Virus genome (UHGV): UHGV-0375936
DNA length: 64,000 nucleotides
Strand: one strand, 5' to 3'
From: a virus
Numbering within the stretch: the stretch's first letter is position 1; each line of letters starts with the position of its first letter. Positions 39,888 through 57,600 of this stretch are shown here, piece by piece. The notes beneath the pieces are model-generated. The model ran no database searches, was not told where the DNA came from, and saw only the letters and a list, made by a program, of their open reading frames with translations. Position numbers and translations under genes: made by a program.

Positions 39888-40364
39888 TTACAGCCCTAAG
39901 TGCGTGAGTGATAAAATAGGTTGTGTTTCACCTTTAATCGTCGCGTAGGAACGATACATTTCTGCGTTACTTGAAAAAACTTCGTTAGCAACGATACATT
40001 CACCCGTCTCTAAAGAAAGGAGATAAATGTAGTCGCTCCATACGCTTTGTACCAATACCCACTCAAGTGCGGTATCATTTTCGCGTGTTGTTCGCAGGTG
40101 ATGAAAGTAAGGACGGATTGCATCAACCGCCGCATTAAAACGACGGTGATAGATTCGGGTTAAATCAAAGGTCCAGATTGTTTCCAGGTCGACTGGATGT
40201 AATGTGCGCACCGTTTCGATAATCGTCGACTGATCGTTAAGGCGCGAGGCTTCGGCGATACGTAGCAGTTTCCAGGCTACCGTTAAGTTGTGGCGAATTT
40301 GTTCAGGTTTAGCCGACAGGTCATGATGAAATTGCGCAGCTTGGTAAACGTTAGATAATTGCAT
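39888..40364 (-). CDS. Hypothetical protein (158 aa)
   Basis: ORF, minus strand. Confidence 0.55.
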   Translation of the reverse strand: MQLSNVYQAAQFHHDLSAKPEQIRHNLTVAWKLLRIAEASRLNDQSTIIETVRTLHPVDLETIWTFDLTRIYHRRFNAAVDAIRPYFHHLRTTRENDTALEWVLVQSVWSDYIYLLSLETGECIVANEVFSSNAEMYRSYATIKGETQPILSLTHLGL

Positions 40365-40384
40365 TTTAATACTCCTTTAGGTAA

Positions 40385-40420
40385 ATATGTCGTAAAAAGG
40401 ACCCCGGACGTACCGGGGCC
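40385..40420 (-). terminator. Rho-independent terminator (minus strand), end of secreted-protein operon
   Basis: CCCCGG-acgta-CCGGGG hairpin then TCCTTTTTACG on minus strand. Confidence 0.55.
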
Positions 40421-40430
40421 AAGACTACAC

Positions 40431-40820
40431 TCAAAGATCTAATTCGATAGCACCAGCCATCTTGCCCCGTTCTTCTATAACGATCAGATAACGGTCGCGA
40501 GATTTGCTTTTAGCGAGAGTTAAGACAACGGTAGGGTCGCACGTTTTCGTGGTGATAGGAAGAACCTCTCTTGCGACGGAATCGAGCAGAAAGTAATAAC
40601 CTGCGGGACACATTGTGCCGCCATCAGCTTTTACCAGAATATAGCGCCCGTCTGCGCCGACTTCTTGGCAGATTGTTTCACCGACTTCGCAAACTTCAAA
40701 CCCCGGAGGATTGTACTGGTAATCGGTATTGTTGTTTGGGGTTAGCAGTAAATCGTTAACTTGAGTAGATGCTGCTACACTCAGGGAGAAGAAGAATGCT
40801 AAAACGCAGACGAGACGCAT
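40431..40820 (-). CDS. Secreted small Cys-containing protein 1 (129 aa)
   Basis: Signal-like MRLVCVLAFFFSLSVAAS; AAGGAG RBS; CEVGETICQ...GRYILV motif shared with next gene. Confidence 0.6.
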   Translation of the reverse strand: MRLVCVLAFFFSLSVAASTQVNDLLLTPNNNTDYQYNPPGFEVCEVGETICQEVGADGRYILVKADGGTMCPAGYYFLLDSVAREVLPITTKTCDPTVVLTLAKSKSRDRYLIVIEERGKMAGAIELDL

Positions 40821-40830
40821 GAGTTACTCC

Positions 40831-41241
40831 TTAAATTTTAAGTTTATCCATAGCTACAACGATAGGTTTTTCCGAAGTGTCTAATATCCCTACCATTGGC
40901 ACACCATCTACGACTTCGAAGAATGGTTTGTTATTACCAGAGCATAGACGTTTGTCGTTGTATTCGAGACGCTGAGCCTTCCACGTTTCGAGGTTGAGTA
41001 CGGACATTGGGCTGTCGTAGCACCAGGCACCACCTTGCTCAACGATGAATACGTATCTGCTACCTTTGTATTTAAACAGGCTCTTTGCCTGGCAGTACAA
41101 CCCGTCTATTTCCGTACAATAGAAATCATCGGTGCTATTGACGTACTTAATATTGTCTGGCAACTGTATTGTCTTTGCTGTAGCGTTGACAGAGAACAGA
41201 ACAGCCATTGCAATGAGAAGAGTATTAATGATAGTTTTCAT
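40831..41241 (-). CDS. Secreted small Cys-containing protein 2 (136 aa), paralog of protein 1
   Basis: Signal-like MKTIINTLLIAMAVLFSVNATA; CTEIDGLYCQ...SRYVFIV. Confidence 0.6.
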   Translation of the reverse strand: MKTIINTLLIAMAVLFSVNATAKTIQLPDNIKYVNSTDDFYCTEIDGLYCQAKSLFKYKGSRYVFIVEQGGAWCYDSPMSVLNLETWKAQRLEYNDKRLCSGNNKPFFEVVDGVPMVGILDTSEKPIVVAMDKLKI

Positions 41242-41252
41242 GATAAAAGTCC

Positions 41253-41738
41253 TTAGTATTTAGATTGTTCTACGTACTTCTTAACCAGGTAAGCGAATTC
41301 GGCAACACCGATATCACCGAACCAAATCAGGTAACCGGGGTCGATGTTGTAGTAATAACCGACGAGTTTCTTGGTGTGTGGGTTGTATAGCGTTACGATG
41401 TATTCCCAACCACAAGCGTTAGCTTTACAACCGCCACTTTCAATCCAGATTTTGTTGTTGATGTTTACCGGATACATGTTACCGCCAGGGCCATCCATGT
41501 AACCTTTAGAGCCGAACATACCATCCAGTCCCACAGGGTCTAGTGTTTTATCAACAACGGCTTTAAACGACTTATCGGTATCGTACAAGTCGTTGATGTT
41601 TGGGCACGCATTTGGCTGGCCTTCCCAAGCGTTTCCATCACAGGTAAGCAATTCGTCTACGGAGGCCGCATCTACAGTTGGCGTGGCACCGATAAACAAG
41701 AAAACCAGAAAGAACATCAGTGTATGTAAACGTTTCAT
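41253..41738 (-). CDS. Secreted small protein 3 (161 aa)
   Basis: Signal-like MKRLHTLMFFLVFLFIGATPTVDAA; Cys pairs CDGNAWEGQPNACPN, CKANAC. Confidence 0.6.
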   Translation of the reverse strand: MKRLHTLMFFLVFLFIGATPTVDAASVDELLTCDGNAWEGQPNACPNINDLYDTDKSFKAVVDKTLDPVGLDGMFGSKGYMDGPGGNMYPVNINNKIWIESGGCKANACGWEYIVTLYNPHTKKLVGYYYNIDPGYLIWFGDIGVAEFAYLVKKYVEQSKY

Positions 41739-41756
41739 TGTAACTACTCCTTTAGA

Positions 41757-42149
41757 TTATTCGGCAGGACGATTTAAGGTAACGCGTCCGATTAATTCAG
41801 CGTTGTGAAAGAAGTCCACAGCGGTATAGTTACCAACTGATAGCGGATGGATACTAACTGACATTACTTTTGGTTGTTCGCAGGCGATATCCGTCAGGCG
41901 TTGGTAGACTTGTGCACGAGTGTCAGCAATGAGTAATCCCGTACACGTTTCACCACGCACTAAACGATAAACTTGCAGTTTACCGAAACTGCGCATTAAC
42001 GTAGGCGTCTCATCCGGGTTGATAATCGGTGACTCAGGAGCCGGTTCGTAATAGCGGACATCCGAATCACCGAAAGCATAAGTGCCAGTAATTCCGACCG
42101 CACAGAAAACAATGATAGTATAAAGTATAGTTCTGATATTCATTTTCAC
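41757..42149 (-). CDS. Secreted small protein 4 (130 aa)
   Basis: Signal-like MKMNIRTILYTIIVFCAVGITGTYAF. Confidence 0.6.
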   Translation of the reverse strand: MKMNIRTILYTIIVFCAVGITGTYAFGDSDVRYYEPAPESPIINPDETPTLMRSFGKLQVYRLVRGETCTGLLIADTRAQVYQRLTDIACEQPKVMSVSIHPLSVGNYTAVDFFHNAELIGRVTLNRPAE

Positions 42150-42171
42150 GCACTCTAAAAAAGATTAATAC

Positions 42172-42633
42172 TTATTTGTTAGGACGGGTGTGTCCACAGT
42201 TCTGGAAGAAAGTTTCAGATAAACGATCGCCTTCTACGGTAAAGTTAGCGGCATCGTTACCATTGATACTCACACTGAAAGTTTTGGCATTACCGATAGC
42301 ATTAACGAAAGCAACCCAAGCGTGTTCTGCCTTGTCGCTACCGTCCACGGTAGGGATGTTATAGGTTTTGCCGTTTACGACAATATCCATCATGTTATCT
42401 TCAGCGTTAGTTGCACCTACGGGTTCCCCGTAATACCAAACCATGCGACCGTAAAATTTGCGATTCACAGTTTCTGTGTCACAGTTGATAGACAGTCCGT
42501 TTCCGGCGGTGTCTTCGATTTCGTAAACTGCCTGGCCAGGGTTTTGTATTTGTTCCCAACTATTGATTGCAGCGTATGCGCTATTGAGGCCGAAAGTTAA
42601 AATGGTTATTAAGAATGTGATAAAGGTTTTCAT
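42172..42633 (-). CDS. Secreted small protein 5 (153 aa)
   Basis: Signal-like MKTFITFLITILTFGLNSAYA. Confidence 0.6.
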   Translation of the reverse strand: MKTFITFLITILTFGLNSAYAAINSWEQIQNPGQAVYEIEDTAGNGLSINCDTETVNRKFYGRMVWYYGEPVGATNAEDNMMDIVVNGKTYNIPTVDGSDKAEHAWVAFVNAIGNAKTFSVSINGNDAANFTVEGDRLSETFFQNCGHTRPNK

Positions 42634-42679
42634 TGAAATGCTCCTTCGAGTTATGGGGAAGCTCCCACAAATTATGAAA

Positions 42680-43051
42680 TTAAATAACTGTGTTGGGTAA
42701 TGCTTTAATCTGTGTATAACTATCTCCGATACCTCTTATCATTTCCAGACGCTCTTCTGTAGAAAGGCTTTGGTTAATGTCTTTGTCAAGATTGAACAGT
42801 GTCAAGAGTTTTGCAATTGCAACCGTCAAGTTGTCGGACAGCTCGTTGTTTTTACGCCATTCTTCGTTACGGAAAATAGAGATAAGGTCTTTCGCCTGGC
42901 CTTCAGCGTGCGGTTTGGCTAACTGCGCGTCACGCTGTTCGATAAGGTATGCTTCGTTAGTAAGTAAACGTTTCAGGTTTTCTGGGTTAGTGGCAGCGCG
43001 AGTAACGATCATTAATACAACAAACGGGTCTTTAAATAATTCGTTTTTCAT
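42680..43051 (-). CDS. Hypothetical protein (123 aa), first gene of secreted-protein operon
   Basis: TTTTAGGAGAACTAAAG-ATG; no signal peptide. Confidence 0.55.
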   Translation of the reverse strand: MKNELFKDPFVVLMIVTRAATNPENLKRLLTNEAYLIEQRDAQLAKPHAEGQAKDLISIFRNEEWRKNNELSDNLTVAIAKLLTLFNLDKDINQSLSTEERLEMIRGIGDSYTQIKALPNTVI

Positions 43052-43141: not shown

Positions 43142-43178
43142 GAACAAAAAAATAAAAGGTGGGGGTAAACCCCCCACC
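43142..43178 (-). terminator. Rho-independent terminator (minus strand)
   Basis: GGTGGGGG-taaac-CCCCCACC hairpin then TTTTATTTTTTTGTT on minus strand. Confidence 0.65.
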
Positions 43179-43182: not shown

Positions 43183-43761
43183 TTATACATCGAACCGATA
43201 CTGCCGGGAGTTAATGAGGAATTCGGTATTCAGCTCAATCCATTCGAGTAAATCACCCAACGGTAATCGGTTTGGGTTTTCTAACTCAATAGACGCTACC
43301 GGATAAGAGTTTACTAATTCCGTAATTGTATCAATACCCTCTTGCGTTCCATCGTCTTCTAAGGTGATTGTAAACGGCATATCGGTACGATCCGCATTAG
43401 GATTGTACAAACTGACTTTTGTTGCTTGGACAAACGCAGACAGGTCGTCACGTATAATGCGTGTATCAGGCGATAGAACTACCCAGAGATGCTGCCCTGG
43501 CTGGAGTTTACGTTTTGCGTAGTTTAAGAAAGGACTTGCCATCAAGTTTTCCAAACCACAACAGATGCTACGTAACTGTATTCCGCGCGGATCTCGGTAA
43601 TCCACATCGAAAATTCCCACAGGTTCATTCGCTGCCTGTTTTATCAGAAAGGCCAATACCGTGTCCGCTCTTTCTGGTAAGGAAAGCTCTATTCCCTCAA
43701 GCTCCCCATCGACGAGATTTTCTAACCAAACGTCTTTTCGCATTTCTATTAATCGGTACAC
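43183..43761 (-). CDS. Hypothetical protein (192 aa)
   Basis: ORF, last gene of operon downstream of paralog family. Confidence 0.55.
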   Translation of the reverse strand: MYRLIEMRKDVWLENLVDGELEGIELSLPERADTVLAFLIKQAANEPVGIFDVDYRDPRGIQLRSICCGLENLMASPFLNYAKRKLQPGQHLWVVLSPDTRIIRDDLSAFVQATKVSLYNPNADRTDMPFTITLEDDGTQEGIDTITELVNSYPVASIELENPNRLPLGDLLEWIELNTEFLINSRQYRFDV

Positions 43762-43773: not shown

Positions 43774-44547
43774 CTAATAATTAAGTTTTACATCGGCAAT
43801 AAACAGCAATTGTTTACCATGTTGCTGCACTTCTTTCCAACCTAGTTTCATAGCAGCGTCAACAACATCTAACATGCTGTAACGGGACATCAAAGATTCT
43901 GATTTTGTTCCTGACATTAAGTAAAGTGGCTCATTAGGGCTACGGTCACGTGCGTCAGGAAGTTCCCGAGAGACTGCTGATCCTTCGGGTACGGTAACAA
44001 CATGAATCACGGTAAATGGTCTCTTGTGCGTCAGATAGATACGAAACCCAACGTGTTCAGATTCATGAAAGACTTTCTTCACAACCACATCTTTTAGTGT
44101 CGTCTGAACATCAGCCCCAGGTAATATCGTGGTTTCACGTGAAACGAAACAACGGCTATTTTCAATCGTGGAGAAATAATTACGTATCGGCAAACTAGCG
44201 TTATGATCGCGCAGTTTTTTGCTCAGTAGATCGAAGTTCAGTTCTTTAACTTTCTCTAGCCATTCTTTGGCTTGTTGAATGTAATAACTACCGACAGTGC
44301 GATAAGTTAATACCTTACCTGTGCTTACTTTCCAAAGTTTAACGCTTAGTGAATTTGGCTTATAGCGACGATACTCACCCCGCGTATAGTTGATGCGCTC
44401 GTAACGCTCTACATCGTCAACGGGTGCAGATTCGATCGATTGTAATTGCAGCGTACGATCTAATCTATCGGCGAATAGTAGTGATGTTAGCGGACCTTCG
44501 ATCAAATACGGTTCGGTTTTAAAGATATCATCTAGATGGATTTTCAT
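43774..44547 (-). CDS. Paralog-family protein 4 (257 aa), shared C-terminal module
   Basis: C-terminus DVVDAAMKLGWKEVQQHGKQLLFIADV. Confidence 0.6.
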   Translation of the reverse strand: MKIHLDDIFKTEPYLIEGPLTSLLFADRLDRTLQLQSIESAPVDDVERYERINYTRGEYRRYKPNSLSVKLWKVSTGKVLTYRTVGSYYIQQAKEWLEKVKELNFDLLSKKLRDHNASLPIRNYFSTIENSRCFVSRETTILPGADVQTTLKDVVVKKVFHESEHVGFRIYLTHKRPFTVIHVVTVPEGSAVSRELPDARDRSPNEPLYLMSGTKSESLMSRYSMLDVVDAAMKLGWKEVQQHGKQLLFIADVKLNY

Positions 44548-44614
44548 TTCTATTTCCTTCTTAACAAAAGCCGCGACTAAAGCGCGGCAGTTAGAGAAAG
44601 TCTATTTTTACTTA

Positions 44615-45766
44615 TTAGAGGTCAGCAACAAACAACAGCTGGCAGCCGTACTTTTGTACGTCCGCCCAACCGTAGTCTTTTCCGATTATAGGTAGATGTA
44701 AAATATCCAGCTTCTCGTCTTTCGCTTTTAGTTTCGCCATTAACGCATTGGACTCCTCAGCACTGAGGAGTAATGCTGGCTCTTTTTCAGTACGTCCTTC
44801 TGCGGTTGGGAAGAAATTGTAATAGCTGCGAGTAGGTAAATCGACAGAAAAACTACGATTGCCTATTCTGGCGATGAACGCAACTCCTTCACAGTTAGCA
44901 TCTACACTACACGACCATCCCGCCTCCGTTAAAAGGTCTTTTAACAGACACCACACTTTAAGTTGGTTCTTAGAAACTGTACGGTAAATAGCAAGATGTT
45001 CAGGAAGTAAATGTACGCCCATAACCACGTTTTCAGATTTCTCGTCAAGCAACTCTGGATGCTGTATCGGGAACAATAATTCACTGATACCCACGTTATC
45101 AATTTTGTTAACAAAATCAGTTAATTCATCTTTTAAGGTAGACACTTGATTTTCTCCTTTGTCTTCAATAATCAGGTGGGGTTCGCCGCTAATTAAAATG
45201 TGGTAAACGAGATCGTCAGTAGAACGGTAAGTGAGCTTGATTGCTTTATCACTTAATATTTCGTAGCGGAAGAAACTTTCGTACCAACTTGAGCCGAAAT
45301 CGTTTTGTGTAAGCTCCTGCTCAACTTTGATGGTTTTTGCTTCAAAGCCGATTAACTCGCTTAATAACGCGAGTTCTTGTTTAGTTAAAATAGCTACACC
45401 GTGAAAGGGCACTTGTTCAAGCTGAAAACATAACTTAGTGACTTCACCATTTGGGAAGACCTTAAACATAATCTTCCGGTTGCTACTCTTTTCCCTAACA
45501 ACGAGTTTACGGTAATTTAGTCCACAATTTGTGTAAGCCGCGAACTGGTAACCTTCAATTTCTTCATCGGAAGTACAGACATCGACAGGCGCGATAATCT
45601 CATCGTATTCACTAAGTACACAGCAGCCCAATTTATAACCAAACAACGTATGTTGTAAAAAATAGTCGAGGGTTAAGCTTGGTAGTGGCCAAGCCCGATT
45701 ATAGCATCTGTCCATCAGTTCTTTTAGGTACTTGGCATGTCTTGGTTTAGAAATAATATTTCGCAT
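44615..45766 (-). CDS. Paralog-family protein 3 (383 aa), shared C-terminal module
   Basis: C-terminus FFPTAEGRT...LLL...GKDYGWADVQKYGCQLLFVADL. Confidence 0.6.
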   Translation of the reverse strand: MRNIISKPRHAKYLKELMDRCYNRAWPLPSLTLDYFLQHTLFGYKLGCCVLSEYDEIIAPVDVCTSDEEIEGYQFAAYTNCGLNYRKLVVREKSSNRKIMFKVFPNGEVTKLCFQLEQVPFHGVAILTKQELALLSELIGFEAKTIKVEQELTQNDFGSSWYESFFRYEILSDKAIKLTYRSTDDLVYHILISGEPHLIIEDKGENQVSTLKDELTDFVNKIDNVGISELLFPIQHPELLDEKSENVVMGVHLLPEHLAIYRTVSKNQLKVWCLLKDLLTEAGWSCSVDANCEGVAFIARIGNRSFSVDLPTRSYYNFFPTAEGRTEKEPALLLSAEESNALMAKLKAKDEKLDILHLPIIGKDYGWADVQKYGCQLLFVADL

Positions 45767-45797
45767 TTTTACTCTCCTTTAGGGGTTTTTTCGTTAC

Positions 45798-46352
45798 TTA
45801 AGCAGGGCAAGCTAAGAACAACAACTGCTGACCGATTTTACGTACGGTATACCAACCGTGGGCTTTAGCGACCGCGATCAACGTTTCCCAGTCATCAACA
45901 TCACATTGCTCGTTCCGAAGTTTTGTAAAGAGTGCTTCGGCTTCGTCTTGGTTTAATAACTTACCTGGATTATCAGGGGTGGTGCCAGAAGGGGTTGGAA
46001 AGAAATCGTATTGACGCGCTAAGAGAAAATCAACCAGATACTTGGTGTTCTCTTTATAAACCAGTGTGGAAGTCTTCCCTTCGTGGAAGAAGCTGCCTGT
46101 TTTCCAAACGCTATCTTTCAGTAAGCTCTGAAGGTAATCTGTAAAGCCCGTTCTAAATGGGATATGCGTTTTACGCGTGATGTTGCGACGCAGCGGGGTT
46201 TCCTCCACAGCTTGTACACTCACCCCTACTATCATCGCACCTGGCTGAATAATGGTATTGGTCAGTACGGTATAGGGACAGTTAAAGAAATGTTCACCTA
46301 CACCTTTTTCAAGGGATTGGATAATTTCATTTTTCAGTTTAGTCAGATACAT
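45798..46352 (-). CDS. Paralog-family protein 2 (184 aa), shared C-terminal module
   Basis: C-terminus FFPTPSGTT...LL...AKAHGWYTVRKIGQQLLFLA; 3' DNA similar to that of 44615-45766. Confidence 0.6.
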   Translation of the reverse strand: MYLTKLKNEIIQSLEKGVGEHFFNCPYTVLTNTIIQPGAMIVGVSVQAVEETPLRRNITRKTHIPFRTGFTDYLQSLLKDSVWKTGSFFHEGKTSTLVYKENTKYLVDFLLARQYDFFPTPSGTTPDNPGKLLNQDEAEALFTKLRNEQCDVDDWETLIAVAKAHGWYTVRKIGQQLLFLACPA

Positions 46353-46378
46353 GATATATTCTCCTTTTAGGTTTTTAC

Positions 46379-47113
46379 TTACGCGGTTTTAATTAGCAGC
46401 AGATAGCCCTTCGTAATCTCAGCACAACTCCACCCTTTTACGGCAGCGACACCACGAAGGTAATTTTCTGTGTGATACTGTAAAAACGGATCGTCTGGAT
46501 TAATCTCAACTAGGTGAGTGGCTTTAGAAATCGTTTCCGCCTCTGGGATTTGTTTTGTTAAGCCTGATGCAATCAGTTCAATAACGCGGTATCCCTCTAA
46601 CCAAGAAACATAGATACGTAAACCGTATAACTTACCGTTATCTTTTAAGGGATAAAGACTGATGTCCCGGCCGAGCAACGTTAATTCTACATCAGTGGGA
46701 AGGTTTTCTACATGCTTGATTAACCCTACCCCATGTCTAAACAGTGGGAAGTAAGAGTATAGCGTCAGCATACTGCTTCCTCCAATAAACGTAACATCGG
46801 AAACGGTAGGCGTGCTGGCAATGAGGCGAACATGTTCCGCTACGACTTCAAGTTCGGCGTCACTGATCAATTTATAGAATAAAATGACGCTGGTTTCGGT
46901 ATTAAGAACAAAGAAGAACCGGTTGGCGTGACTGCTTATCGTGTATTCGTCAACCATGCTGTCGATAACGTCACTGTCTGGATAATCTTCGGGTTTAATT
47001 GTTTCAGCAGAGACTAACTTAGCAGGTTGGGATTGCCCTATTAGTTCATTAACCACCGTAGAAGAAAGTTCTAAACTGGTGTTAGTAAAGATATCGTCTA
47101 ATAATTCTCTCAT
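46379..47113 (-). CDS. Paralog-family protein 1 (244 aa), divergent member
   Basis: C-terminus GVAAVKGWSCAEITKGYLLLIKTA; LKD..G segment as in other members. Confidence 0.5.
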   Translation of the reverse strand: MRELLDDIFTNTSLELSSTVVNELIGQSQPAKLVSAETIKPEDYPDSDVIDSMVDEYTISSHANRFFFVLNTETSVILFYKLISDAELEVVAEHVRLIASTPTVSDVTFIGGSSMLTLYSYFPLFRHGVGLIKHVENLPTDVELTLLGRDISLYPLKDNGKLYGLRIYVSWLEGYRVIELIASGLTKQIPEAETISKATHLVEINPDDPFLQYHTENYLRGVAAVKGWSCAEITKGYLLLIKTA

Positions 47114-47453
47114 GATTTACTCGCTAATCTCAATAAAGGGGAGTCTATTATTATGGATTGTAAAAGAGGTATAAGGAAGTCACTACGTTCCTCTGGGAAG
47201 AGTATGTCGGTATACTACGTATACCTCCGCTATTTATATCCGTATACATAATGCCCCCTACCCCCTACCGGTATCCCGAGTAGCAGAATAAAGGGACATA
47301 ATGTAATTTTTAGTACCTGTTATCGGAAGGTACTAAATGGAGTGTAGTCTTTAAGCCGTTTGAGCAGCTCATTGAGACTTTCTTTCTTTTTAGTAGACAT
47401 GATCTGTCTCTCCAAATGGTTTAATCAATCCGTTTCGAATGAAACGTGCTCGT

Positions 47454-47533: not shown

Positions 47534-48499
47534 ATGGAGAAATCCAGTGTTGATTTTTTCTCAATTGGTATCGTCGCGGAAGACAAACCCCGTGGTACAG
47601 ATCGGGTAAAAGTGATACCAATTGAAACCAACTTTGCTAACCCTACCGTGGTGCAATCTGTTTCTTCAGCAACTGAAAAGACGCATGAAACGTCCGGTGC
47701 AACAGATAACCTAACCATTAAGACGGGTAACACGATAACCGCAAAGTGGTGGAAGTTTAACTCCAACCGAATTAATTCCCCTGACGTTAAACGAGAAGAC
47801 TACGTTATCTTGTTGCGTTTGGGGAAAACCGATATTTATTTTTGGATTGATCTGAACTTCGCTAACGTTAAGCGATTAGAAGATGCGGTTTATGCGTGGT
47901 CGGCTGACCCTGAAAACCAAATGGCGGATGACTTGTCCAATGCGTATGTGTTGAACGTTTCGACGATTGACAAACATATCACGCTAAGAACGAGTATGGT
48001 GAATGGCGAGAAAGCGGCGTGGTTGTTTCAGTTTGATAATGCAAACGGTACGTGGCAGTGCGTTGACCATAAAGGAAACAAGTATTACATTAACTCGGTT
48101 GAAGATGATCTCGGGTTTGAGAATGCGATGCTTTCAAAAGTGAACATCAACAAAGAAGATGCGTTCATTTATTCAAAGCGTTCTATTAACCTGGAAACGA
48201 AAACGATTAATGAAAAATGTGAAGTCCGCAATACGGAAGCAGCGAATTCCGTTACGTTTAAAACACAAACCTGGTTAACAGAAGCGGGCAGTTCGACAAC
48301 GTTTAAAACGCCGAACTTTAAACAAGAAGGGAAGGAAGCGATGTTCACCGGTAATTTGGAAATCGCTAAGAACTTCAAATACGGTGGTACGGGTGAAGGC
48401 GTGGGTGTCTTTACGGTTAAAGATGCCATTATTTCCGGTATTACCTTTAGCGTTCACATTCACCAAGGTAAACATGGCCCGACATCACCTCCACAGTAA
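47534..48499 (+). CDS. Hypothetical structural protein (321 aa) with His-rich C-terminus
   Basis: First gene of plus-strand late block; C-terminus SVHIHQGKHGPTSPPQ; function not established. Confidence 0.55.
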   Translation: MEKSSVDFFSIGIVAEDKPRGTDRVKVIPIETNFANPTVVQSVSSATEKTHETSGATDNLTIKTGNTITAKWWKFNSNRINSPDVKREDYVILLRLGKTDIYFWIDLNFANVKRLEDAVYAWSADPENQMADDLSNAYVLNVSTIDKHITLRTSMVNGEKAAWLFQFDNANGTWQCVDHKGNKYYINSVEDDLGFENAMLSKVNINKEDAFIYSKRSINLETKTINEKCEVRNTEAANSVTFKTQTWLTEAGSSTTFKTPNFKQEGKEAMFTGNLEIAKNFKYGGTGEGVGVFTVKDAIISGITFSVHIHQGKHGPTSPPQ

Positions 48500-48706
48500 T
48501 TCCCCTTTTTCTTACGTTGTTTTTATATATTGTGACCTGACGTTGGTAAAACTTTTTATCAACACTTTTCTTAAACCCATCGTTTAGTTAAGCAGGCCAC
48601 TTTTTTTCGCGCACTCTACTCCTCCCTACGGGGAGGAGCTATCTTATGCTTCGGTTGTAACACACGTCGGTCTTAGACCACTAACCTTTTGAAATGGAGA
48701 GCTGTT

Positions 48707-48916
48707 ATGTCTATTAAAGAGTTCTCTTCTGCTGAGCATATTCCAGAAGAGTTTAAGAAAATCGGTAACGTTAGCGCTTTCGGCGATACCGTTGATCATG
48801 TAACTGGTAAACTGGCTGCTGAAGCTGAAAAAATTGGCGGCGACGCATTCAAAGTTATCGGTATTTCCGGCAACAACAAACTGCACGGTAACGCGATTGT
48901 CTACAAAAAAGACTAA
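48707..48916 (+). CDS. DUF1471 (YdgH/BhsA/McbA-like) small protein without signal peptide; probable host-derived moron
   Basis: ATG at 48707 preceded by GGAGAG; mature-domain-like sequence KIGNVSA...GDAFKVIGISGNNKLHGNAIVYKK; codon usage (CTG, GGT, AAA) resembles enterobacterial highly expressed genes. Confidence 0.55.
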   Translation: MSIKEFSSAEHIPEEFKKIGNVSAFGDTVDHVTGKLAAEAEKIGGDAFKVIGISGNNKLHGNAIVYKKD

Positions 48917-48920: not shown

Positions 48921-48977
48921 AAAAAAAAACGTGCTACTCCTACCCTCTAAGAGGGTAGGAGGTTACTTTATTTTTTT
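48921..48977. terminator. Bidirectional rho-independent terminator
   Basis: CTCCTACCCTC-taa-GAGGGTAGGAG hairpin with A10 upstream and T7 downstream. Confidence 0.7.
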
Positions 48978-50230
48978 CGTGCTCTAAAGCGATGCATTTC
49001 TAAATACACTTTTTCCCAGGGACCGAATGGACCGACGATTGCTTGCGCGTCGTTAATCTTCTTCTGATTATACCACCGGGCTTCACGAAAGACGTAGTTT
49101 TGACTGTCGAACTCTGTGGTGTTAAATACCCACTCACCCTCCTCCCATGTAGGCCAATAGCCCACCGTCTTTCCGAAGCGGTTGTTTAAGTACCCTAACG
49201 GTTTTTCAGAATCAGGATCGTTAGGGTCCTTGAGATAACAACGTCCCCAAACTGCGTTATGCGATACACCCACAACCTCTTCTTCTAAATACGGATTATC
49301 TACCGTAAAGATAAACGAAGACTCGTGGAGTAAAAGCGCCTTTAATGTTTCGGGGTTGCGAATACGTTGGACATTAGTAGGTGTTGATAAATCCCCCACA
49401 CCGATGGCGTCCCAGTCGTAATAGCGACGGGTTTCCAGAACGGTCCGCGCAAGATCAAAATTCGGTAAAGAAATCATGATCGCACGGTCGGAGAAATAAC
49501 CGCCCGGAGGCAACCAACGTAACAGTCCACCGATGACGAAACCCACCGTTTTTCCCGTAATAGATTCGGGTAGCGAAATCATTAACGTGGAGTAATAGTC
49601 ACGTGTGGTGTCGAGCTTGTTTAGGGTAAGGTTGGCAATGGGGTAAGTTTTAACATTCCCTAACTGACCAAAAACCATACAGCCGATATCTGGCGTACAG
49701 GCCCTTCGTACAATTTTACCGGCCCCGGGTAATCGGACACCTACGGTATCTGTCTGATGCGCTACCCATTGACCGTTAATGTTGTACAGTACACTATTAC
49801 GGTATTTGTCCTTCCACTTGTCCTCACAAACGATGACAACGTCATCAGCATCATCTAAGCTGAAATCTTGACTGTGGTGGTACCCCGGCGGACACAGGTA
49901 CGTTTCAACGGGCACGTCAGCATTAATCGATTGGTAATGTGCCCAACTGAATTCGAGTTTCGGCAATCCGGCCTTTAGAGTGGGGATGACGTTTCCGGCT
50001 TTTTCATTTAACCAATCTTGTAAAGTGTCTGTTCGGTTTTGTAGTTCGGCAAGATGGTATTGGCTGACTAACGTATAGTCTTTACCAAGTGCACTTAAAC
50101 CGATCTCAAAGGTGTGGTAGTCTGAACACAACGTATTTAAGGGTTGCGTGACATCGATGGCTCCCCAGGTACGGGACTCTCGAGAGAAGCCAAAAGCGCT
50201 GTCGGGCCGCACTTGATAAGCAGTAGTCAC
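48968..50230 (-). CDS. Hypothetical protein (420 aa), minus-strand gene within late block
   Basis: Long ORF convergent with DUF1471 gene. Confidence 0.6.
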   Translation of the reverse strand: MTTAYQVRPDSAFGFSRESRTWGAIDVTQPLNTLCSDYHTFEIGLSALGKDYTLVSQYHLAELQNRTDTLQDWLNEKAGNVIPTLKAGLPKLEFSWAHYQSINADVPVETYLCPPGYHHSQDFSLDDADDVVIVCEDKWKDKYRNSVLYNINGQWVAHQTDTVGVRLPGAGKIVRRACTPDIGCMVFGQLGNVKTYPIANLTLNKLDTTRDYYSTLMISLPESITGKTVGFVIGGLLRWLPPGGYFSDRAIMISLPNFDLARTVLETRRYYDWDAIGVGDLSTPTNVQRIRNPETLKALLLHESSFIFTVDNPYLEEEVVGVSHNAVWGRCYLKDPNDPDSEKPLGYLNNRFGKTVGYWPTWEEGEWVFNTTEFDSQNYVFREARWYNQKKINDAQAIVGPFGPWEKVYLEMHRFRARKK

Positions 50231-50298: not shown

Positions 50299-53200
50299 AT
50301 GGCTGTCGTCCTAGACCCACACTTCAAAAAACCGGGGAATAAAATAACCGGTGAAGCGGTCGCCGTCATTGGTACGAAATACCGAATGTTGGTACCTGCC
50401 CACGCCCCTTTTTTCACCACATCCCTGGTGGTCAAGAGCGGCGGCAAAACACTGACCTTAGGCGACGATTACATTATTACACACCCGTACGAGACCGGTA
50501 TGTTGCGCACAGCCTATCTCATTCACGGGATGATTTGGATTGTTAATGACAAATACAAATCGAATTTTACGGTAGATTACCACGCCGTTGGTTGTGGTCA
50601 GGCTACCCAACAACAGATTACCGCAGAACGCGAACTCAATAAAGATAAATACCCGACTACGTGTCAGTGGGACACCGTCATCGGGGACGTTTACTTTCCG
50701 CCGGTCGATATCCAGTTCGATTGGGAGAATTGGAAAGGTGAACTGGAATTAATGCAGGCTATTGCTGGATTAGGCGATTCGTTAGGGGAAGTCGTGAGTC
50801 GACTTAACCCCATCGCACGCAATACCCTGGATTTAGAATACCGTGCTAACAGCAAGGTTATCACTTCCGAGCAGTATGCCGCATACGACAATAAAGGTGG
50901 GTTCACCTACAACACTACCCGTCATCGTTATAGCTTGAGTTATAAAACTGCAACCTTTAACGACTACGCCCTGTCAGTGAAACATAGAATTCCTGCTATT
51001 CTGCCAGACATGACGAAATTGAATCCAAACGAACAGATCGATTGGATGCTCTGTTATGCTAACGGCGGGGCAAGTATTCTACGGCTGCAGCTAAAACAGC
51101 GCAAAATCTCACTGGTCTTAACGGTCGCTATTGGTAGCGGTTCAACAAACTACGATTATACGTTAATCAACGGTTTAACTGACGATGAGTTAAAAAACGA
51201 TATCGATTTTAGTGTAACCCGTCAACCCGGAAACGGTGTTTACGTCATCGTAGTAAAAACAAATAAACAGACCATGGATTACACATTCAACGTCGATACG
51301 CCGCCTGATGAGTTCTCGGCAGGGTATTCGAAAACGGATGTTGCTAAATGGTTGAAGTCTAAAACGAACATTAACCTGAACTGGTATGCTGGACAAAAAG
51401 ATTATGTTCAAATTCGTTCTTTACCCGGCGCACCAGAACCTGACGTCGACAACGATGTTTACCAGTTAATAGTTAAATACCATCAATTAGTTGAGCAGCT
51501 GTATCGTAACGCGCCTGCACACGAACACGTTACACGTAAGGACAACCCGCACACCGATACGTGGGGCCCGATCCGTGCGTTACAGCTGAATGGTATTGCG
51601 TCGGATGCCGCGTTAGCTTACGGGAAAACGAAACAACAGTTAACGGATTATGTTAATGCTAAGTACCCAACACAAGCAACGTTAACCGCACAGAAAAAAC
51701 TGCTTCGTGAATCGGCGAACAAGAACGTTAACGGCACGATTACCACACTTCCGGGTTTTACTTCGTTCACGACGGAAGTTGATCCGGTTTCGATGTCGAA
51801 ATACGTGAGTCCTAGTTTTAGCGAAAGCTACGTTAGTAATGGTCACAGGTATCACGGTGCGCTTCGTTACACAGGAACGAAAAGCGGTTTCAGTGCTAAC
51901 TTTAATGCGGTGCCTGCCAACCTGCAAGATATTGACTTTATTGTTACCGGACGTAAAACAGCGTCTGGTAACGAAGCTGTCGGTGCAGTTGGTTTGCGTT
52001 TCTACGAAAACCCCGGTAGTAACTCCGGTAAGTTTGTAGAGATTAACGGACAAATCTGGGCTGGTACCCTTACTATCAGTCTGACATTGAACGGTTACGG
52101 GAGTCCGTTACCGTCGGTGCGTTATATTTCTCAAGCCCCTAATCCGGCAATACCGGATGGAGATTTTACGCTACGTTTTCAACTGAAGCGTACAGGGAAC
52201 GTGTTTGACGTCGTTATTACCGTAAACGGTAAAACGTATAGCGCCCGGATTAACTTCAATAACATGGACGCTGCGTTAGAAGCATTAGAGAATCAGCACC
52301 ACTTTAAATCGCTGATCAATAATGTTGCCGATGGCGTCAAAATTAGTTCGCAAAACAAAGGTAACACGGTTACCATTAAGAAAGCACCGGATGTCGTTGA
52401 CGGAACTCGTTTAGGTGCCCAGTTTGTCGTTGATCCGAAATCCATTAAGTTTATTGGCCAAGGTTCAACTGATGTTAACGTAGGAAATAACCCCGTAACG
52501 TTCCAAGCAGGTACTAACCAGCTTATGTTGTATCCTGACGATCGTGGGTTACAGTGGCGTGGTAAAAAACTCTTAGACCCTACCACCGTGGCCCCGTATC
52601 TGCCAGGTAATACCGCAGGTGGTACCGGTTTATTCTACGCAAGCTCGACAACAACAGTTACGATCACTGGTAGCGGGATAAAAGCTTCGCCGTTCGTAGC
52701 GACCTTTATTCTCCCTACCGCGACCGATACAACGGCTCTGGCAGCTTGGCAGTTGACCGATGAGTTCGGTACTGCTGAAAACCTTGCAGCAACGCCAGCA
52801 CTGATTGAAAAACTGGATGCGGAGTTCACCGGTAAGTTAGTTGCAGTTAAATCGTACATTAACGACATGCAGCTTACCAGCTCGGTTACTATCGATAAGA
52901 TTACCTTCGGTTTAGGTAATGTTGCGAATACGCCCGATGTCAATTTACCGATTTCTACAGCACAGCGTGCGGAGTTAGATAAATACTCGCCTAAGGTTCA
53001 CCAACACCCGTTTACCGCTTTTGGTACCGGGAACGCAACCACAGCGAAACGCGGTCTGATTAAATTTGGTCTGGATGTGGATGATGCGACTTTAGCACTC
53101 GATGGGAGTGTGGTAATGGCGCAGACTTCCCAGATTGAAAAATTGGAGAGTGCTGTCGGCGGCGTTGACTCGGAGGCACGTCTTGATATCATACGTTTTG

Positions 53201-54621
53201 GTGAGTCTGGTAACGACTTAATAGACGTTACGGTCAAAGACAAAATTCTGGTCACGCTTCCAGCTTCAACGTATTTTATCGGTGGCGAAACGTACACCGT
53301 ACCGTTGATGACGATTAACGTTAGTGAACGTTTTCCGAAATTGAATACAGAGATCTACGCGGGGATTTTTGTTGATATTGTTGATAACAAAGCGAAGTAT
53401 ATTATCCACGACAGCTACAGTCAGGCCGAAACGGATACCATGACGCGTGTGGGGTTGATCGGCGTCAACGACCTTTCTGAGGTGTTCGTTACAGAGATGC
53501 GTAATGTCACACGGTTGGGTGATTTCCGTGAACTGAAAGATCATAAAGCCGATGACAACGCACACATTCAGCGCTCCGCATCACGTGCAGCGCTTGGGTT
53601 AGCTAACTTAACCGTAGGTGCGCCTTGCTGGGCTTCTGGACTCCAGGCAGTAGTACGCGGTGAAGCAGATTGGCGTTATGTTGCCGGTGGACAGTATAAA
53701 GCTTTAGACGGGGTGAAATACGACCAGCTCGCATCCAAGTGGATTTTTGACGCGAAAGGGGTAAGCGATAACCTACACGGGTTTATCCACAACATGTTCC
53801 CAGCTTTTAAGAACGCAGGAATGCGGGTAAGTTGGGAAACAGAAAGCAACGCAAAAACCGGCACGGTGTTAGAAACTGTTTTAGGTTGTTGGAAAAACAC
53901 CGACGGCGAGTTTATGCGGTTGTCGTTACTTATCACTCGTGGTTATCGTTTAACTGACAGCAACGGTGAGTATTGTTACGCAGGGTTCGGTTTGAACTTC
54001 GGTAGCGGGAAATCGGTAGTGTTAGGTTTCACACCAACGAAGCGTGTTACGCCTGCACCGTGGAATACGTTACAACCTGACGTAACGTTTACCCACACCC
54101 GTGCTGCAAATAACGCATTAACGTTTAACGCAACACTGACCTTAGCGGGCACTACGTATACCGTCGTGGTGTTTTTATCTGCGACAGATAAATACGTAAG
54201 CTGCACGGCAGCAGGGGGAGCTACGCAGAAAATCCCTCTAACTGACCGTTTAACAGGGTTCAACCTCGCACCTATCGTTAACGATCCGTATACCCCTATT
54301 TACTACGGTTTAGGGGGACTTTATGAGGATGAGGTTCGTGCCAACATCCGTTCTACGGCAGACAGCGCAACCGCGAATAAAGTCTACGGTACGTTGTTAG
54401 ACTATATTAGCAACTATTCCTCATTAAATCGTGTGCGCGTTATGGAATTGAGCGGTGTCAGTTCAGACCCCGAAACGCTTAATGCGTTAGTGGCAACTGA
54501 ATTTAATAACAACCTGGCGGATTACGCCGCGTTACCGATACCTTCTTATCTTAACAAGGAGCGCGTAATGTCGTTTATCGACACCAACAATAAAGTGCAG
54601 GCGGTAATCATTCGCGATTAA
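50299..54621 (+). CDS. Giant tail fiber protein A (1440 aa)
   Basis: Tail-fiber motif FGLGNVANTPDVNLPISTAQRAELD...HQH; ATTAKRGLIKF repeat; N-terminal module VPAHAPFF..LVV...LGDDYI shared with next two ORFs. Confidence 0.75.
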   Translation: MAVVLDPHFKKPGNKITGEAVAVIGTKYRMLVPAHAPFFTTSLVVKSGGKTLTLGDDYIITHPYETGMLRTAYLIHGMIWIVNDKYKSNFTVDYHAVGCGQATQQQITAERELNKDKYPTTCQWDTVIGDVYFPPVDIQFDWENWKGELELMQAIAGLGDSLGEVVSRLNPIARNTLDLEYRANSKVITSEQYAAYDNKGGFTYNTTRHRYSLSYKTATFNDYALSVKHRIPAILPDMTKLNPNEQIDWMLCYANGGASILRLQLKQRKISLVLTVAIGSGSTNYDYTLINGLTDDELKNDIDFSVTRQPGNGVYVIVVKTNKQTMDYTFNVDTPPDEFSAGYSKTDVAKWLKSKTNINLNWYAGQKDYVQIRSLPGAPEPDVDNDVYQLIVKYHQLVEQLYRNAPAHEHVTRKDNPHTDTWGPIRALQLNGIASDAALAYGKTKQQLTDYVNAKYPTQATLTAQKKLLRESANKNVNGTITTLPGFTSFTTEVDPVSMSKYVSPSFSESYVSNGHRYHGALRYTGTKSGFSANFNAVPANLQDIDFIVTGRKTASGNEAVGAVGLRFYENPGSNSGKFVEINGQIWAGTLTISLTLNGYGSPLPSVRYISQAPNPAIPDGDFTLRFQLKRTGNVFDVVITVNGKTYSARINFNNMDAALEALENQHHFKSLINNVADGVKISSQNKGNTVTIKKAPDVVDGTRLGAQFVVDPKSIKFIGQGSTDVNVGNNPVTFQAGTNQLMLYPDDRGLQWRGKKLLDPTTVAPYLPGNTAGGTGLFYASSTTTVTITGSGIKASPFVATFILPTATDTTALAAWQLTDEFGTAENLAATPALIEKLDAEFTGKLVAVKSYINDMQLTSSVTIDKITFGLGNVANTPDVNLPISTAQRAELDKYSPKVHQHPFTAFGTGNATTAKRGLIKFGLDVDDATLALDGSVVMAQTSQIEKLESAVGGVDSEARLDIIRFGESGNDLIDVTVKDKILVTLPASTYFIGGETYTVPLMTINVSERFPKLNTEIYAGIFVDIVDNKAKYIIHDSYSQAETDTMTRVGLIGVNDLSEVFVTEMRNVTRLGDFRELKDHKADDNAHIQRSASRAALGLANLTVGAPCWASGLQAVVRGEADWRYVAGGQYKALDGVKYDQLASKWIFDAKGVSDNLHGFIHNMFPAFKNAGMRVSWETESNAKTGTVLETVLGCWKNTDGEFMRLSLLITRGYRLTDSNGEYCYAGFGLNFGSGKSVVLGFTPTKRVTPAPWNTLQPDVTFTHTRAANNALTFNATLTLAGTTYTVVVFLSATDKYVSCTAAGGATQKIPLTDRLTGFNLAPIVNDPYTPIYYGLGGLYEDEVRANIRSTADSATANKVYGTLLDYISNYSSLNRVRVMELSGVSSDPETLNALVATEFNNNLADYAALPIPSYLNKERVMSFIDTNNKVQAVIIRD

Positions 54622-54631: not shown

Positions 54632-57600
54632 TTGATGAAAGCGTATCCTTACGATCCTCGGGGGACGAAAGCCGAGAATCACTTCTTAGAGGAGCGTATC
54701 ATCGGGTCAGAGAACAACAACGATCGGGTGGTGATTTTAGACCACCGCCCGTTCTTTGAAGATTTGGTCGTCAGACAACCAGGTTCAACCACCCCACTGA
54801 GTCGTGGGGTGGACTACGAACTGCAATATCAGCTGACGGAACTGGATGACTCGGTAGCAGCCAACGTGTATTGTGGGGTACACCTTATCAACCCATCCAT
54901 CAAAGGCATCGTAACCTTTGAAGGACAAATGCTCGGCGGTACGTTCTACGACCCGTTTGTTGATATTCTCGATGAACTGGTGAAATATTTGAATAACCCT
55001 GTCAGTGCTGACTGGTTGTTATTAGACGGTAGACCATCGTTATATCCAGCGACGCCAGCAGCAACGTCCTGGGCGGATTTGCTGAACAAAAAATATTTAG
55101 CGTCGGCAGTTCACGATATTGAATTGAAAACCGACGACGCTAACCAGTTAATTAAAGACAAATTAGCTGAAGTTAAAGCGTTAGTGACTGCGTTGGGTAA
55201 AGAAATCGAAGCATTTAACTACCCGGCACATATCGCGGAAACCAACCCACACAAAACCACATCCGCGCAGATTAACGCGCATCCTGTTAACTTGAAAACA
55301 CCCGACACCTTTATGGCGTACGGGTTAAAGTTGAAAGCGCTGACGGATGAGCTGAAAGCGTTTCGTTTACCCCAGTCAGTTATCGACACGTATATCTCTC
55401 ACTGGATTTCTTCGGAAGTACGTGGCGTGTTTAACTGTACGGTGTCAGGAAACCGCGCACAGTTCCGTTCGAAAAACGGTGAGTCAGAAATCATTTTTGC
55501 CAACGATGGTTTTACGTTAAAATCCAACGGTTCTGTGGTATTAGCGGTAGGGCATCTGGAAGGTACGGGTGCAGGACGTTACATTAATTGGCGTGCCGGT
55601 AAAAACACATTACGCATCGAGTCAACAGGCGATGCTTTAGGGATGAACAAACTCACCCTGAACGGTAACCCGTTACTGACTACCACGGCGTTGATGGAAT
55701 ACCAACAAGATCCAGATGCGGGTTCTGGTGGCGGTGGCGACCCTGATGACTCGAAGGTGTACATTGAAGGCCGTAATGGGATTAGCTTTACCGGTAAAGG
55801 TTCTCGCGCCGACCCTATCGTGGGGACTATCGACCCAACAAAAGCGACAACCGCCGAAAAAGGCGTCGCTAAACTTAAAACAGGTAAAGGTACAGAAACG
55901 ACTGGGGTTGCTGCAACTCCGGCTTCGTTAGCACCATACTCGACTGACCTATCGGGGTATGTGGCTAAAACGACCATGATTAACGGTAAGCCGATGAACG
56001 ACGGCTCCAGGACAATCACGAAAGCTGATCTGGGGTTAGGGCAAGCGAATAACACCGCAGACGTTGACAAACCGTTGTCTACCGAGTTAAATGCGGCGCT
56101 TAGCGGCTTAGCGGATGCAGGCCACCACCACGATTGGTCGGAACTCGGCATTTATAAAGCCTCGCAATCCGTTTACGGTATCGGTCGTTACGCAACTAAC
56201 CAGAACGGTTTGGTTGAAAACCGTGCGGTAGTACCGAACATCTTAAAAGAACTTTCGGCGCGTTTAGATGTGGTTGCTGCGGCGATTGCAAACGCGAAAG
56301 AAGGATCGGTAACGGATTTCGCTGCGGTAAAAGGCGCAGAGTGGCGCTTTAATAGTCAGGGTACGGCAATCTCCGTTCAAGATTTGAAGTATTTCTATTT
56401 GCTGAACGGTACGAAAGCTGATAGCACCGTTACAGGTTCGATTGACCTGCAAACTACGCCGATGTTTAACTGGTTCTCACCGAACAACCAAATTGAGACG
56501 ACTTGGCCTACGGGGAAAGTGAGCGCTGGTAAGGGTATTAACTGGACAGGTATTGAAGAACCACCACTAATGGGTTTCCAATCTGTTCCGGTAGGTAAAA
56601 CTGCCTCACAGATGGGTGACCAGTCAGTTGTTACTGTGTTGGCCAAAACGCGGGTAAGGGCACACCAGTCGAAGCTTTGGGTTTATGCCGCAGGGGGTGG
56701 TCCGGTTACAGTTTACATTAACGGTATCCAGGCAGCCACAGGCCAGTCTCCACTCGTTGCAGTGCATGAAACATCAGCAGACGTTGAAAACTACACCGTA
56801 GCGGTTAAAGCTGAGTGTAGCGACACAGCTAAATCCGCAGCGGTGCAATTCGAAATTTACGACGGTGACTACCCCGTTTATTTCAGTGGCCCTGAAACGC
56901 GCGTAGAGCTTCTCCAAGAGTTTGTTACAACACACGTAGGGATTCGTCATTATCTGTACGTTAACATGCTCACAAGCTCTCTGTATTCGCGTACTGAGCC
57001 AATTCAGAGTGTTGCAGTTGATCCTGAGCGCGGTTATATCGGCTACGTTGATATTGTTGCCGGTGAGTCTTACGCGAATAAGAGCGTGAGTTTTGAAACC
57101 ACGTTTGATTTCGGGAAAAGTGCCGAGGTTAGTGAACACATTGACACACGCAAAGCACACGGACTCAGCTCTGTAGACTGGACGTTAACGGATAACCCAC
57201 GTTTCCCGTTATTAAATCGTGCGATTGCAGAGCCGAGAACGTGTATTTTTAGAAAAACGTTAACGGCCGGTACTGGTGACGTTTTTCATCTCGTGAGTCG
57301 TGGTCTTTATACTTACGCACATAACCAAAACGTGAAGTCCAGTCTTCAATACGTTGTGATACCTGAAGGTGCTACACCGTATTGCTGGTTTACGCCGTTT
57401 AACCCGAAAGAAAACAACGCACCGACGTTCGAAGGTTCGTTTGTGTTCGACGTTGACGACGTCGGTGGAACACAAGCGCTCACGGCTGCACCGGATTTGG
57501 TGCTGTGTACGTCAACACAAGGTAGCAGCGTTAAACGTCGTTACGTACGTATTGACCTAACTGCCAAAGCGTGTAAGCTGGGGATTGGTTCTCGTTCAGA

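What the first reader, a model, noticed from the sequence alone, without database searches (positions are those of the whole stretch)
43774..47113. Four-gene tandem paralog family with variable N-termini and a conserved C-terminal module
Four consecutive genes (257, 383, 184, 244 aa) end with a related ~70-110 aa C-terminal module (LKD...FFPT..G.T...P..LL....GW..V...G.QLLF.A) while their N-terminal regions differ in length and sequence. The 3' ends of 44615-45766 and 45798-46352 are also similar at the DNA level (aacaaca..ctg..ccg..ttt..tacgt), indicating recent duplication or recombination. Modular diversification behind a constant domain is typical of host-interaction or anti-defense effector families, or of proteins sharing a packaging/partner-binding tag.
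Basis: seen in the sequence. Interest (0 to 1): 0.65.

Follow-up and report, generated by a model that had tools for sequence, protein, structure and literature searches.

The report
Jumbo-phage paralog array sharing uncharacterised domain
Four neighbouring genes of an SPN3US-like giant phage are old, fast-evolving relatives that share a small, compactly folded end-domain of unknown function; the domain also occurs alone or fused to many unrelated partners in other phages, and in SPN3US its carrier is not in the virus particle, so it looks like an intracellular accessory (host-interaction) family rather than a housekeeping or structural one.

Summary
The four minus-strand genes exist as described: A 43774-44547, B 44615-45766, C 45798-46352, D 46379-47113. 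A, B and C share a significant C-terminal module (blastp 3e-6 to 5e-14). D has lost the module's signature loop. It is still tied to the family by full-length remote homology to A (E 1e-4) and by the same predicted β-α-α-β-β ending.

The window is an SPN3US/Asesino-like jumbo phage. The array fills a syntenic slot whose module-gene count varies from 1 to 4 between genera. The paralogs are ancient (third-codon identity 31%), so the "recent duplication" reading fails. B and D have dN/dS of 0.30-0.44, against 0.01-0.07 for neighbours, and alleles are exchanged between otherwise near-identical genomes. The SPN3US ortholog gp175 is absent from the virion proteome, which disfavours a packaging tag.

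Best reading: a non-virion accessory family with a shared binding domain and variable partner domains. Function is unproven. Interest is moderate.

The parts
46379..47113 (-). Gene D (244 aa), first gene of the array. It is a diverged member: a full-length remote homolog of A whose C-terminus (residues ~190-244, nt 46382-46546) is predicted to have the module's β-α-α-β-β order but lacks the PD..DRTpN.P signature.
   Evidence: ORF. 76 homologs at 48-100% identity on ~225-kb contigs. D-HMM hits A at E 1e-4. hhalign results. AF2 pLDDT 83.5. Shuffle test 1/3000. dN/dS 0.30-0.44.
45798..46352 (-). Gene C (184 aa). The module is residues ~96-184 (nt 45801-46067). The N-terminal ~95 aa is hypervariable between related genomes (27-29% identity in three loci).
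44615..45766 (-). Gene B (383 aa). The module is residues ~296-383 (nt 44618-44881). It shares ~108 aa with C. It has a unique ~295-aa N-terminal region and dN/dS of 0.35-0.41. A 42%-identity alternative allele occurs in L011/L012, and the gene is split into two ORFs in L009.
43774..44547 (-). Gene A (257 aa). The module is residues ~181-257 (nt 43777-44004). It is the best-conserved member (81-94% identity, dN/dS 0.09-0.18) and the closest to SPN3US gp175 and Asesino gp195.
   Evidence: Module AF2 model pLDDT 90.5.
43183..43761 (-). Gene E (192 aa, phrog_20879). It is the conserved downstream neighbour (12-nt gap) and the boundary marker of the syntenic slot. It is not a member of the family.
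   Evidence: hhalign against the module gives 0.4% probability.
44570..44588 (-). Terminator-like GC-rich hairpin plus T-run in the B-A gap.
   Evidence: consensus scan only; the count is not above the shuffle expectation.
43158..43178 (-). Strong terminator-like hairpin (8 pairs, 7 GC, T-run) after gene E; the likely end of the D-C-B-A-E transcription unit.
47166..47306 (-). Highly conserved non-coding element immediately upstream of D. It holds GGGGGTAGGGGG (47254-47265) and a hairpin GGAGGTATAC-GTA-GTATACCGACA (47205-47228). It is a candidate promoter, leader or regulatory RNA for the array.
   Evidence: Near-identical in five genomes whose D proteins are 48-84% identical, and the core is present in SPN3US and Asesino. 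MFE -51 kcal/mol, z -3.5. Compensatory stem changes in four genera. No Rfam or tRNA match. Unique in the window.

Best explanation
The four genes are an old, vertically inherited but fast-evolving tandem family of non-virion accessory proteins in an SPN3US/Asesino-like jumbo phage. Each ends in the same autonomous ~70-residue α/β domain: a conserved loop PD..DRTpN.P, then β-α-α-β-β ending in GW..V…G.Q.LL.A. The proposed mechanism is inferred, not shown. The domain is a self-sufficient binding unit that docks onto one conserved partner inside the infected cell, most likely a protein. The unrelated N-terminal regions add or diversify a second activity or specificity. A phage would then carry one to four such proteins as a toolkit for host takeover or counter-defence. 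What is shown: the homology, the domain's fold confidence and autonomy, its promiscuous fusion, the variable copy number at a fixed slot, relaxed or diversifying evolution with allele exchange, and absence of the SPN3US ortholog from virions. What is inferred: the binding function, the identity of the partner, and the host-interaction role.
For: Homology. Confident compact fold: pLDDT 90.5. Autonomy and modularity: 104 clusters at 50% identity, of which 63 are stand-alone, 34 C-terminal and 10 N-terminal, with at least 25 unrelated partner regions. No enzyme or housekeeping family matches. The domain has no charge bias (median pI 6.2; 42% acidic, 26% basic), which argues against a dedicated nucleic-acid binder. 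The genes are real and constrained (dN/dS below 1), but B and D sit at 0.30-0.44 against 0.01-0.07 for structural neighbours. L015 is 99-100% identical in the flanks yet 79-94% in the array, with raised dS, which indicates allele exchange. Copy number at the syntenic slot is 1 in SPN3US and Asesino, 2 in ChrisDB, 3 in Huxley and 3 plus D here. B is interrupted in one genome, which suggests it is dispensable. SPN3US gp174-179 are absent from the virion MS list. Stand-alone copies lie in early or replication-type regions.
Confidence: 0.4

Rival explanations
1. The module is a winged-helix-like or R3H-like nucleic-acid-binding domain, and the proteins are phage transcription or replication regulators whose N-terminal regions sense or oligomerise.
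Confidence: 0.15
2. The module is a homo- or hetero-oligomerisation domain that assembles the paralogs, or the phage's own proteins, into one complex. This would be a phage-internal scaffold or chaperone, for instance for the adjacent baseplate and tail-fibre proteins, rather than a host-directed factor.
For: The array lies next to the baseplate assembly gene, the essential tail protein gp171 homolog and giant virion structural paralogs. A terminal β-hairpin could pair between subunits. Assembly chaperones are typically non-virion, which matches.
Against: The array is transcribed divergently from the baseplate gene and runs with a long non-structural cluster. Stand-alone copies in other phages lie in replication or early regions, never in structural modules. 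The number of module genes (1-4) does not track any obvious structural gene count. B is interrupted in one apparently complete genome.
Confidence: 0.15
3. The conserved D-R-T-x-N loop is a small-molecule or nucleotide binding (or catalytic) site. The domain would be a sensor or sponge for a signalling molecule or metabolite, and the N-terminal parts would be effectors.
For: The invariant or near-invariant residues are polar (D, R, T, N) and lie in an ordered loop (pLDDT ~94). The domain functions alone in most clusters. It is repeatedly found near nucleotide-metabolism genes (ThyX, ligase, Grx, dNK/Tmk, PhoH, ThyA).
Against: Seventy residues is very small for a ligand pocket. There is no structural similarity to known sponges or nucleotide-binding folds. 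D has lost the loop yet is conserved under purifying selection. The neighbourhood association is absent in L024, L026 and L027.
Confidence: 0.1
4. The shared module is a packaging or targeting tag that directs the proteins into the capsid (ejection proteins) or into the phage nucleus.
For: SPN3US-like and phiKZ-like phages package many paralogous proteins and selectively import proteins into a nucleus; no common import signal is known.
Against: SPN3US gp175 was not detected among the virion proteins. gp175 has no phiKZ homolog in the CoreGenes table. The domain also occurs in PhiEaH1 (Iapetusvirus) and in 23-157-kb phage contigs with ordinary replication or lysogeny-type contexts, where a nucleus-specific tag would make no sense. 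Most copies are stand-alone, so there would be no cargo.
Confidence: 0.07

Closest known systems
PHROG families 26772, 33648, 24489 and 18480 (unknown function), e.g. SPN3US gp175 (SPN3US_0175 / YP_009153469, 412 aa), Asesino gp195 (223 aa) and Huxley gp185-187
   Same: They share the C-terminal ~70-aa domain (HMM E 1e-20 to 1e-39). They occupy the same syntenic slot between the baseplate assembly gene and the phrog_20879 gene.
   Different: The N-terminal regions are unrelated. The window lineage has three clear copies plus D, against one in SPN3US and Asesino. C and D are not captured by any PHROG at E<=0.1, apart from a noise-level D hit. None of these families has a described function.
Large paralog families of phiKZ/SPN3US-like phages (e.g. 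the 17-member SPN3US head family; the gp53/gp54 ejection proteins; the gp168-170 baseplate-periphery paralogs)
   Same: They are tandem paralog arrays of unknown function in the same phage group, and are diverged to low identity.
   Different: Those families are virion components, some cleaved by the prohead protease. The SPN3US member of this family is not in the virion list, and there is no sequence similarity.
Winged-helix / MerR-Xis-type β-α-α-β-β DNA-binding domains
   Same: The order of secondary-structure elements is the same and the size is similar.
C-terminal β-α-β-β segment of class I SAM-dependent methyltransferases
   Different: It is only a fragment of a ~250-aa Rossmann fold, with rmsd 4-5 Å, no SAM-binding motif and no methyltransferase Pfam hit. 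It is a substructure resemblance, not homology.

Membership tests
Uncharacterised phage domain family defined here (PHROGs 26772/33648/24489/18480) | Significant profile match to the ~70-aa module, including the PD..DRTpN.P loop and the GW..V…G.Q.LL.A ending | tested here: met
   A, B and C score 1e-16 to 1e-35 against module HMMs. A and B hit the PHROGs at 5e-11 to 4e-3. This is met for A, B and C only.
Uncharacterised phage domain family defined here (PHROGs 26772/33648/24489/18480) | The same feature, applied to gene D | tested here: inconclusive
   D gives no hit with the small HMM. It scores 8 bits over the last 33 residues, reached by 1/3000 shuffles. The signature loop is absent (IPEAETISKATH). 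Full-length homology to A at E 1e-4 and the same predicted topology argue for a diverged member.
Virion / ejection-protein paralog families of SPN3US- and phiKZ-like phages | Detected in purified virions by mass spectrometry | tested here: not met
   The SPN3US virion table lists gp171, gp173 and then gp193, so gp175 is absent. This was tested on the ortholog only, not on this phage.
Winged-helix DNA-binding domains | Clear structural similarity to wHTH domains and a basic recognition helix | tested here: not met
Class I SAM-dependent methyltransferases | Seven-stranded Rossmann-like fold with a SAM-binding GxGxG motif, and a Pfam methyltransferase profile match | tested here: not met
Known anti-phage defence components (PADLOC) | Profile match to a defence-system protein | tested here: not met
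   The only hit is a noise-level DpdF match, E 0.024 at 11 bits.
Known anti-defence proteins (Acr, Ocr, Tad, Gad, Acb and others) | Sequence or structure match to a characterised anti-defence protein, or inhibition of a defence system | not testable with these tools
   No anti-defence profile library was available. PDB sequence and fold searches gave no such hit. A functional test needs experiments.

The most novel reading that the evidence does not exclude
The ~70-aa module is a previously undescribed phage 'docking' domain that delivers interchangeable effector domains to one conserved hub in the infected cell, for example a host machine that many phages must control. The 1-4-gene arrays in SPN3US-like jumbo phages would be a diversifying counter-defence or takeover toolkit, controlled by the unusually conserved structured leader element upstream of the array.
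Probability: 0.15. Interest if true: 0.7.

Novelty: new variant of a known kind. Interest (0 to 1): 0.42.

Why it matters
Most genes of jumbo phages have no function. This work defines a compact, confidently folded and autonomously occurring domain with no Pfam family and no solved relative. It shows the domain fused to many unrelated partners, expanded to varying degrees at one fixed genomic slot, and evolving faster than its neighbours. That gives experimenters a small, tractable handle: a 70-aa domain to use as bait for finding a common partner, in a genetically workable system (SPN3US gp175). It also corrects two tempting readings, recent duplication and capsid-packaging tag. If the partner turns out to be a host defence or core host machine, the family would be a new class of modular phage effectors. 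If not, it remains one more paralog family of unknown function.

Tried and rejected
1. tblastn of B and D against 50,697 GenBank phages gave no hit at 1e-3.
2. Scans against Pfam, NCBIfam, PADLOC and PDB sequences, with full-length proteins and with profiles, gave nothing beyond noise.
4. BFVD returned only uncharacterised jumbo-phage proteins. AFDB50 was not available.
5. I tested whether the neighbouring genes that end in '…GF…' tails (E192, SPN3US gp176 and gp179 and their Asesino counterparts) are hidden members. hhalign probability was below 1%, so this was rejected.
7. The recent-duplication or gene-conversion reading for B and C was rejected.
8. The search for related loci with broad alignments failed for lack of a conserved 7-10-column stretch. 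Narrower alignments found only close relatives or two small contigs.
9. The SPN3US infection-proteome paper (Weintraub 2019) is not held, so expression timing could not be read.
10. The nucleotide-metabolism neighbourhood idea held in L003, L017, L025 and PhiEaH1 but not in L024, L026 or L027. It was downgraded to 'non-structural or early regions'.
11. Rfam and tRNA scans of the conserved upstream element were negative.
Full report
WHAT IS THERE. The region 43774-47113 holds four consecutive minus-strand ORFs: A 43774-44547 (257 aa), B 44615-45766 (383 aa), C 45798-46352 (184 aa) and D 46379-47113 (244 aa). All start with ATG. A, B and C have clear Shine-Dalgarno sequences, and the gaps between genes are 26, 31 and 67 nt. 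A fifth gene, E (43183-43761, 192 aa), follows A after 12 nt. Terminator-like hairpins lie after B (44570-44588) and, more strongly, after E (43158-43178). The array is the first part of a long leftward run of genes that starts at a 420-nt divergent intergenic region shared with a baseplate assembly gene (47534-48499, +).

GENOME CONTEXT. The window is part of a jumbo phage of the SPN3US/phiEaH2/Asesino group. A flanking tail protein (48968-50230) is 80% identical to Asesino and phiEaH2 and 76% to SPN3US gp171. Giant virion structural paralogs, the baseplate protein and SbcC are also present. No GenBank phage matches the array at the DNA level. The same lineage is common as contigs of about 225 kb in metagenomes and in Shigella, E. 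coli and Salmonella assemblies.

CHECK OF THE OBSERVATION. The C-terminal similarity is significant for A, B and C: blastp A-B 7e-10, A-C 3e-6, and B-C 5e-14 over 108 aa. A module HMM retrieves exactly these three in the window at 1e-30 to 5e-35.

The DNA-level claim does not hold as evidence of recency. B and C share one 18-nt match at the Y(N/D)FFPT motif, and aligned codons are 44% identical with third positions at 31%.

WHAT THE MODULE IS. An exhaustive profile search of 1.84 billion representative proteins found 104 clusters at E<=1e-3, two of which are repeat-protein false positives. The consensus is PD..DRTpN.P..LLS, then a helix, a variable linker and a second helix, then GW..V…G.Q.LL.A. 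The AlphaFold model is confident (pLDDT 90.5, pTM 0.76).

The domain is autonomous: 63 clusters are stand-alone proteins of 150 aa or less, 34 carry it C-terminally, 10 N-terminally and 1 internally. The fused regions form at least 25 groups with no mutual similarity, and the N-terminal parts of A, B, C and D are each unique to their own orthologs.

COMPARATIVE GENOMICS. The slot between the baseplate assembly gene and the phrog_20879 gene (E) is syntenic across genera. Its module-gene count varies: SPN3US has one (gp175, 412 aa), Asesino one (gp195, 223 aa), ChrisDB two, Huxley three, and the window lineage three plus D. Within the window lineage the order D-C-B-A-E and the gene lengths are conserved in nine further genomes, so this is not a shuffling cassette.

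The genes do evolve faster than their surroundings. dN/dS is 0.01-0.07 for the tail and baseplate neighbours, 0.09-0.18 for A, 0.14-0.25 for C, 0.30-0.44 for D and 0.35-0.41 for B. C's N-terminal part is only 27-29% identical in three genomes, while its module stays at about 60%. Alleles are mosaic. L015 is 99-100% identical to the window in the flanking genes but 79% (D), 87% (B), 91% (C) and 94% (A) in the array, with raised dS. B is replaced by a 42%-identity allele in L011 and L012, and is split into two ORFs in one E. coli-derived genome.

FUNCTIONAL CLUES. In the SPN3US virion mass-spectrometry table the detected products run …171, 173, 193…, so gp174-179 are not virion proteins. The CoreGenes table lists gp175 homologs in PhiEaH2 and CR5 but none in phiKZ (PMC5105663). 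Neither SPN3US genetics paper names gp175 as essential. Stand-alone copies in other phages lie in non-structural regions:
- L017 and L025: between ThyX and NAD-ligase, near DNA pol III, RecD2, Gmk and NrdD.
- L003, a 279-kb contig: next to glutaredoxin, with dNK/Tmk nearby.
- PhiEaH1: near PhoH and ThyA.
- L026, a 23-kb contig: after a DNA methyltransferase and before a Bro-N protein.
Because the domain also occurs outside the SPN3US-like group, a role tied to the phage nucleus (for import factors see bioRxiv 10.1101/2024.03.27.586873) cannot explain its distribution.

INTERPRETATION. The best-supported reading (confidence about 0.4) is a non-virion accessory protein family. The shared domain would be a self-sufficient binding unit for one conserved intracellular partner, and the variable partner regions would diversify a second function. 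Variable copy number, relaxed or diversifying evolution and allele exchange are what host-interaction loci usually show. The shown steps are homology, fold confidence, autonomy, promiscuous fusion, evolutionary pattern and absence of the ortholog from virions. The binding function, the partner and the host-directed role are inferred.

The rivals are a winged-helix-like nucleic-acid binder (0.15), an oligomerisation or assembly-chaperone domain (0.15), a ligand-binding loop (0.10) and a packaging or nuclear-targeting tag (0.07). The remaining probability covers readings I cannot name.

NOVELTY AND SCORE. The homology groups already exist as unknown-function PHROGs, and paralog families are commonplace in jumbo phages, so a specialist would not be greatly surprised. 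What is new is the delineation of a compact autonomous domain with no Pfam or PDB relative, its many fusion architectures, the variable-copy hot spot and the link of D to the family. I rate it a new variant of a known kind, with interest 0.42.

SIDE FINDING. Immediately upstream of D, at about 47166-47306 (minus strand), is a non-coding element that is nearly identical in five genomes whose D proteins are only 48-84% identical. Its core is recognisable in SPN3US and Asesino. It folds at -51 kcal/mol (z -3.5). A hairpin at 47205-47228 keeps its stem through compensatory changes in four genera. It has no Rfam or tRNA match and is unique in the window. It may be the promoter, leader or regulatory RNA of the array, and it deserves its own follow-up.

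Noticed in passing
window 47166-47306 (- strand); hairpin 47205-47228; G-runs 47254-47265: Non-coding element upstream of gene D. It is near-identical in five genomes although the adjacent D gene is 48-84% identical, and its core is conserved upstream of the first slot gene in SPN3US, Asesino, Huxley and ChrisDB. Folding gives z -3.5, the hairpin stem shows compensatory changes, there is no Rfam or tRNA match, and it is unique in the 64-kb window. It could be a leader, an sRNA or an operator for the array.
   Followed up: partly
window 47320-47400 (- strand): A 26-aa ORF (MSTKKKESLNELLKRLKDYTPFSTFR) with a Shine-Dalgarno sequence, in the divergent intergenic region. It is kept as an ORF, with amino-acid changes, in L007-L010 (MSTEKKSGLDEVIELFKRYNPAIPR in L008), which suggests a real micro-protein gene.
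   Followed up: no
window 39888-42633 (- strand) and 48689-48916 (+ strand): A run of small proteins (129-161 aa), several with N-terminal signal-peptide-like sequences, including one whose orthologs carry Pfam YfjT (PF27224). A 75-aa DUF1471/YdgH-BhsA-like gene lies between the tail and baseplate genes, which is unusual cargo for a lytic jumbo phage.
   Followed up: no
proteins P0011, P0036, P0041, P0045, P0049; L009 = GCA_026204915.1: Near-complete contigs of this phage lineage (~222-227 kb) occur in isolate assemblies labelled Shigella flexneri, E. coli and Salmonella enterica. This suggests carriage of the jumbo phage in bacterial cultures (pseudolysogeny or a carrier state) and a broad enterobacterial host range.
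   Followed up: no
L009 8334-9485 (ortholog of window 44615-45766): Gene B is split into 233-aa and 112-aa ORFs in one E. coli-derived genome. The module-bearing fragment is still intact, so this could be a frameshift, pseudogenisation or a sequencing error.
   Followed up: no
window 42172-43051 (- strand) vs L007-L010: The slot just downstream of gene E is variable. The window has both a 123-aa gene (42680-43051, phrog_27024) and a 153-aa gene (42172-42633). L007-L009 have only the 153-aa (YfjT-like) gene and L010 only the 123-aa gene.
   Followed up: no
window 50299-54621 and 54632-58816 (+ strand): Two adjacent giant virion structural proteins (1440 and 1394 aa) hit overlapping PHROGs (7557, 8078, 7449, 2163). 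They are paralogs of the SPN3US gp168-170 / phiKZ gp131-like baseplate-periphery family.
   Followed up: no
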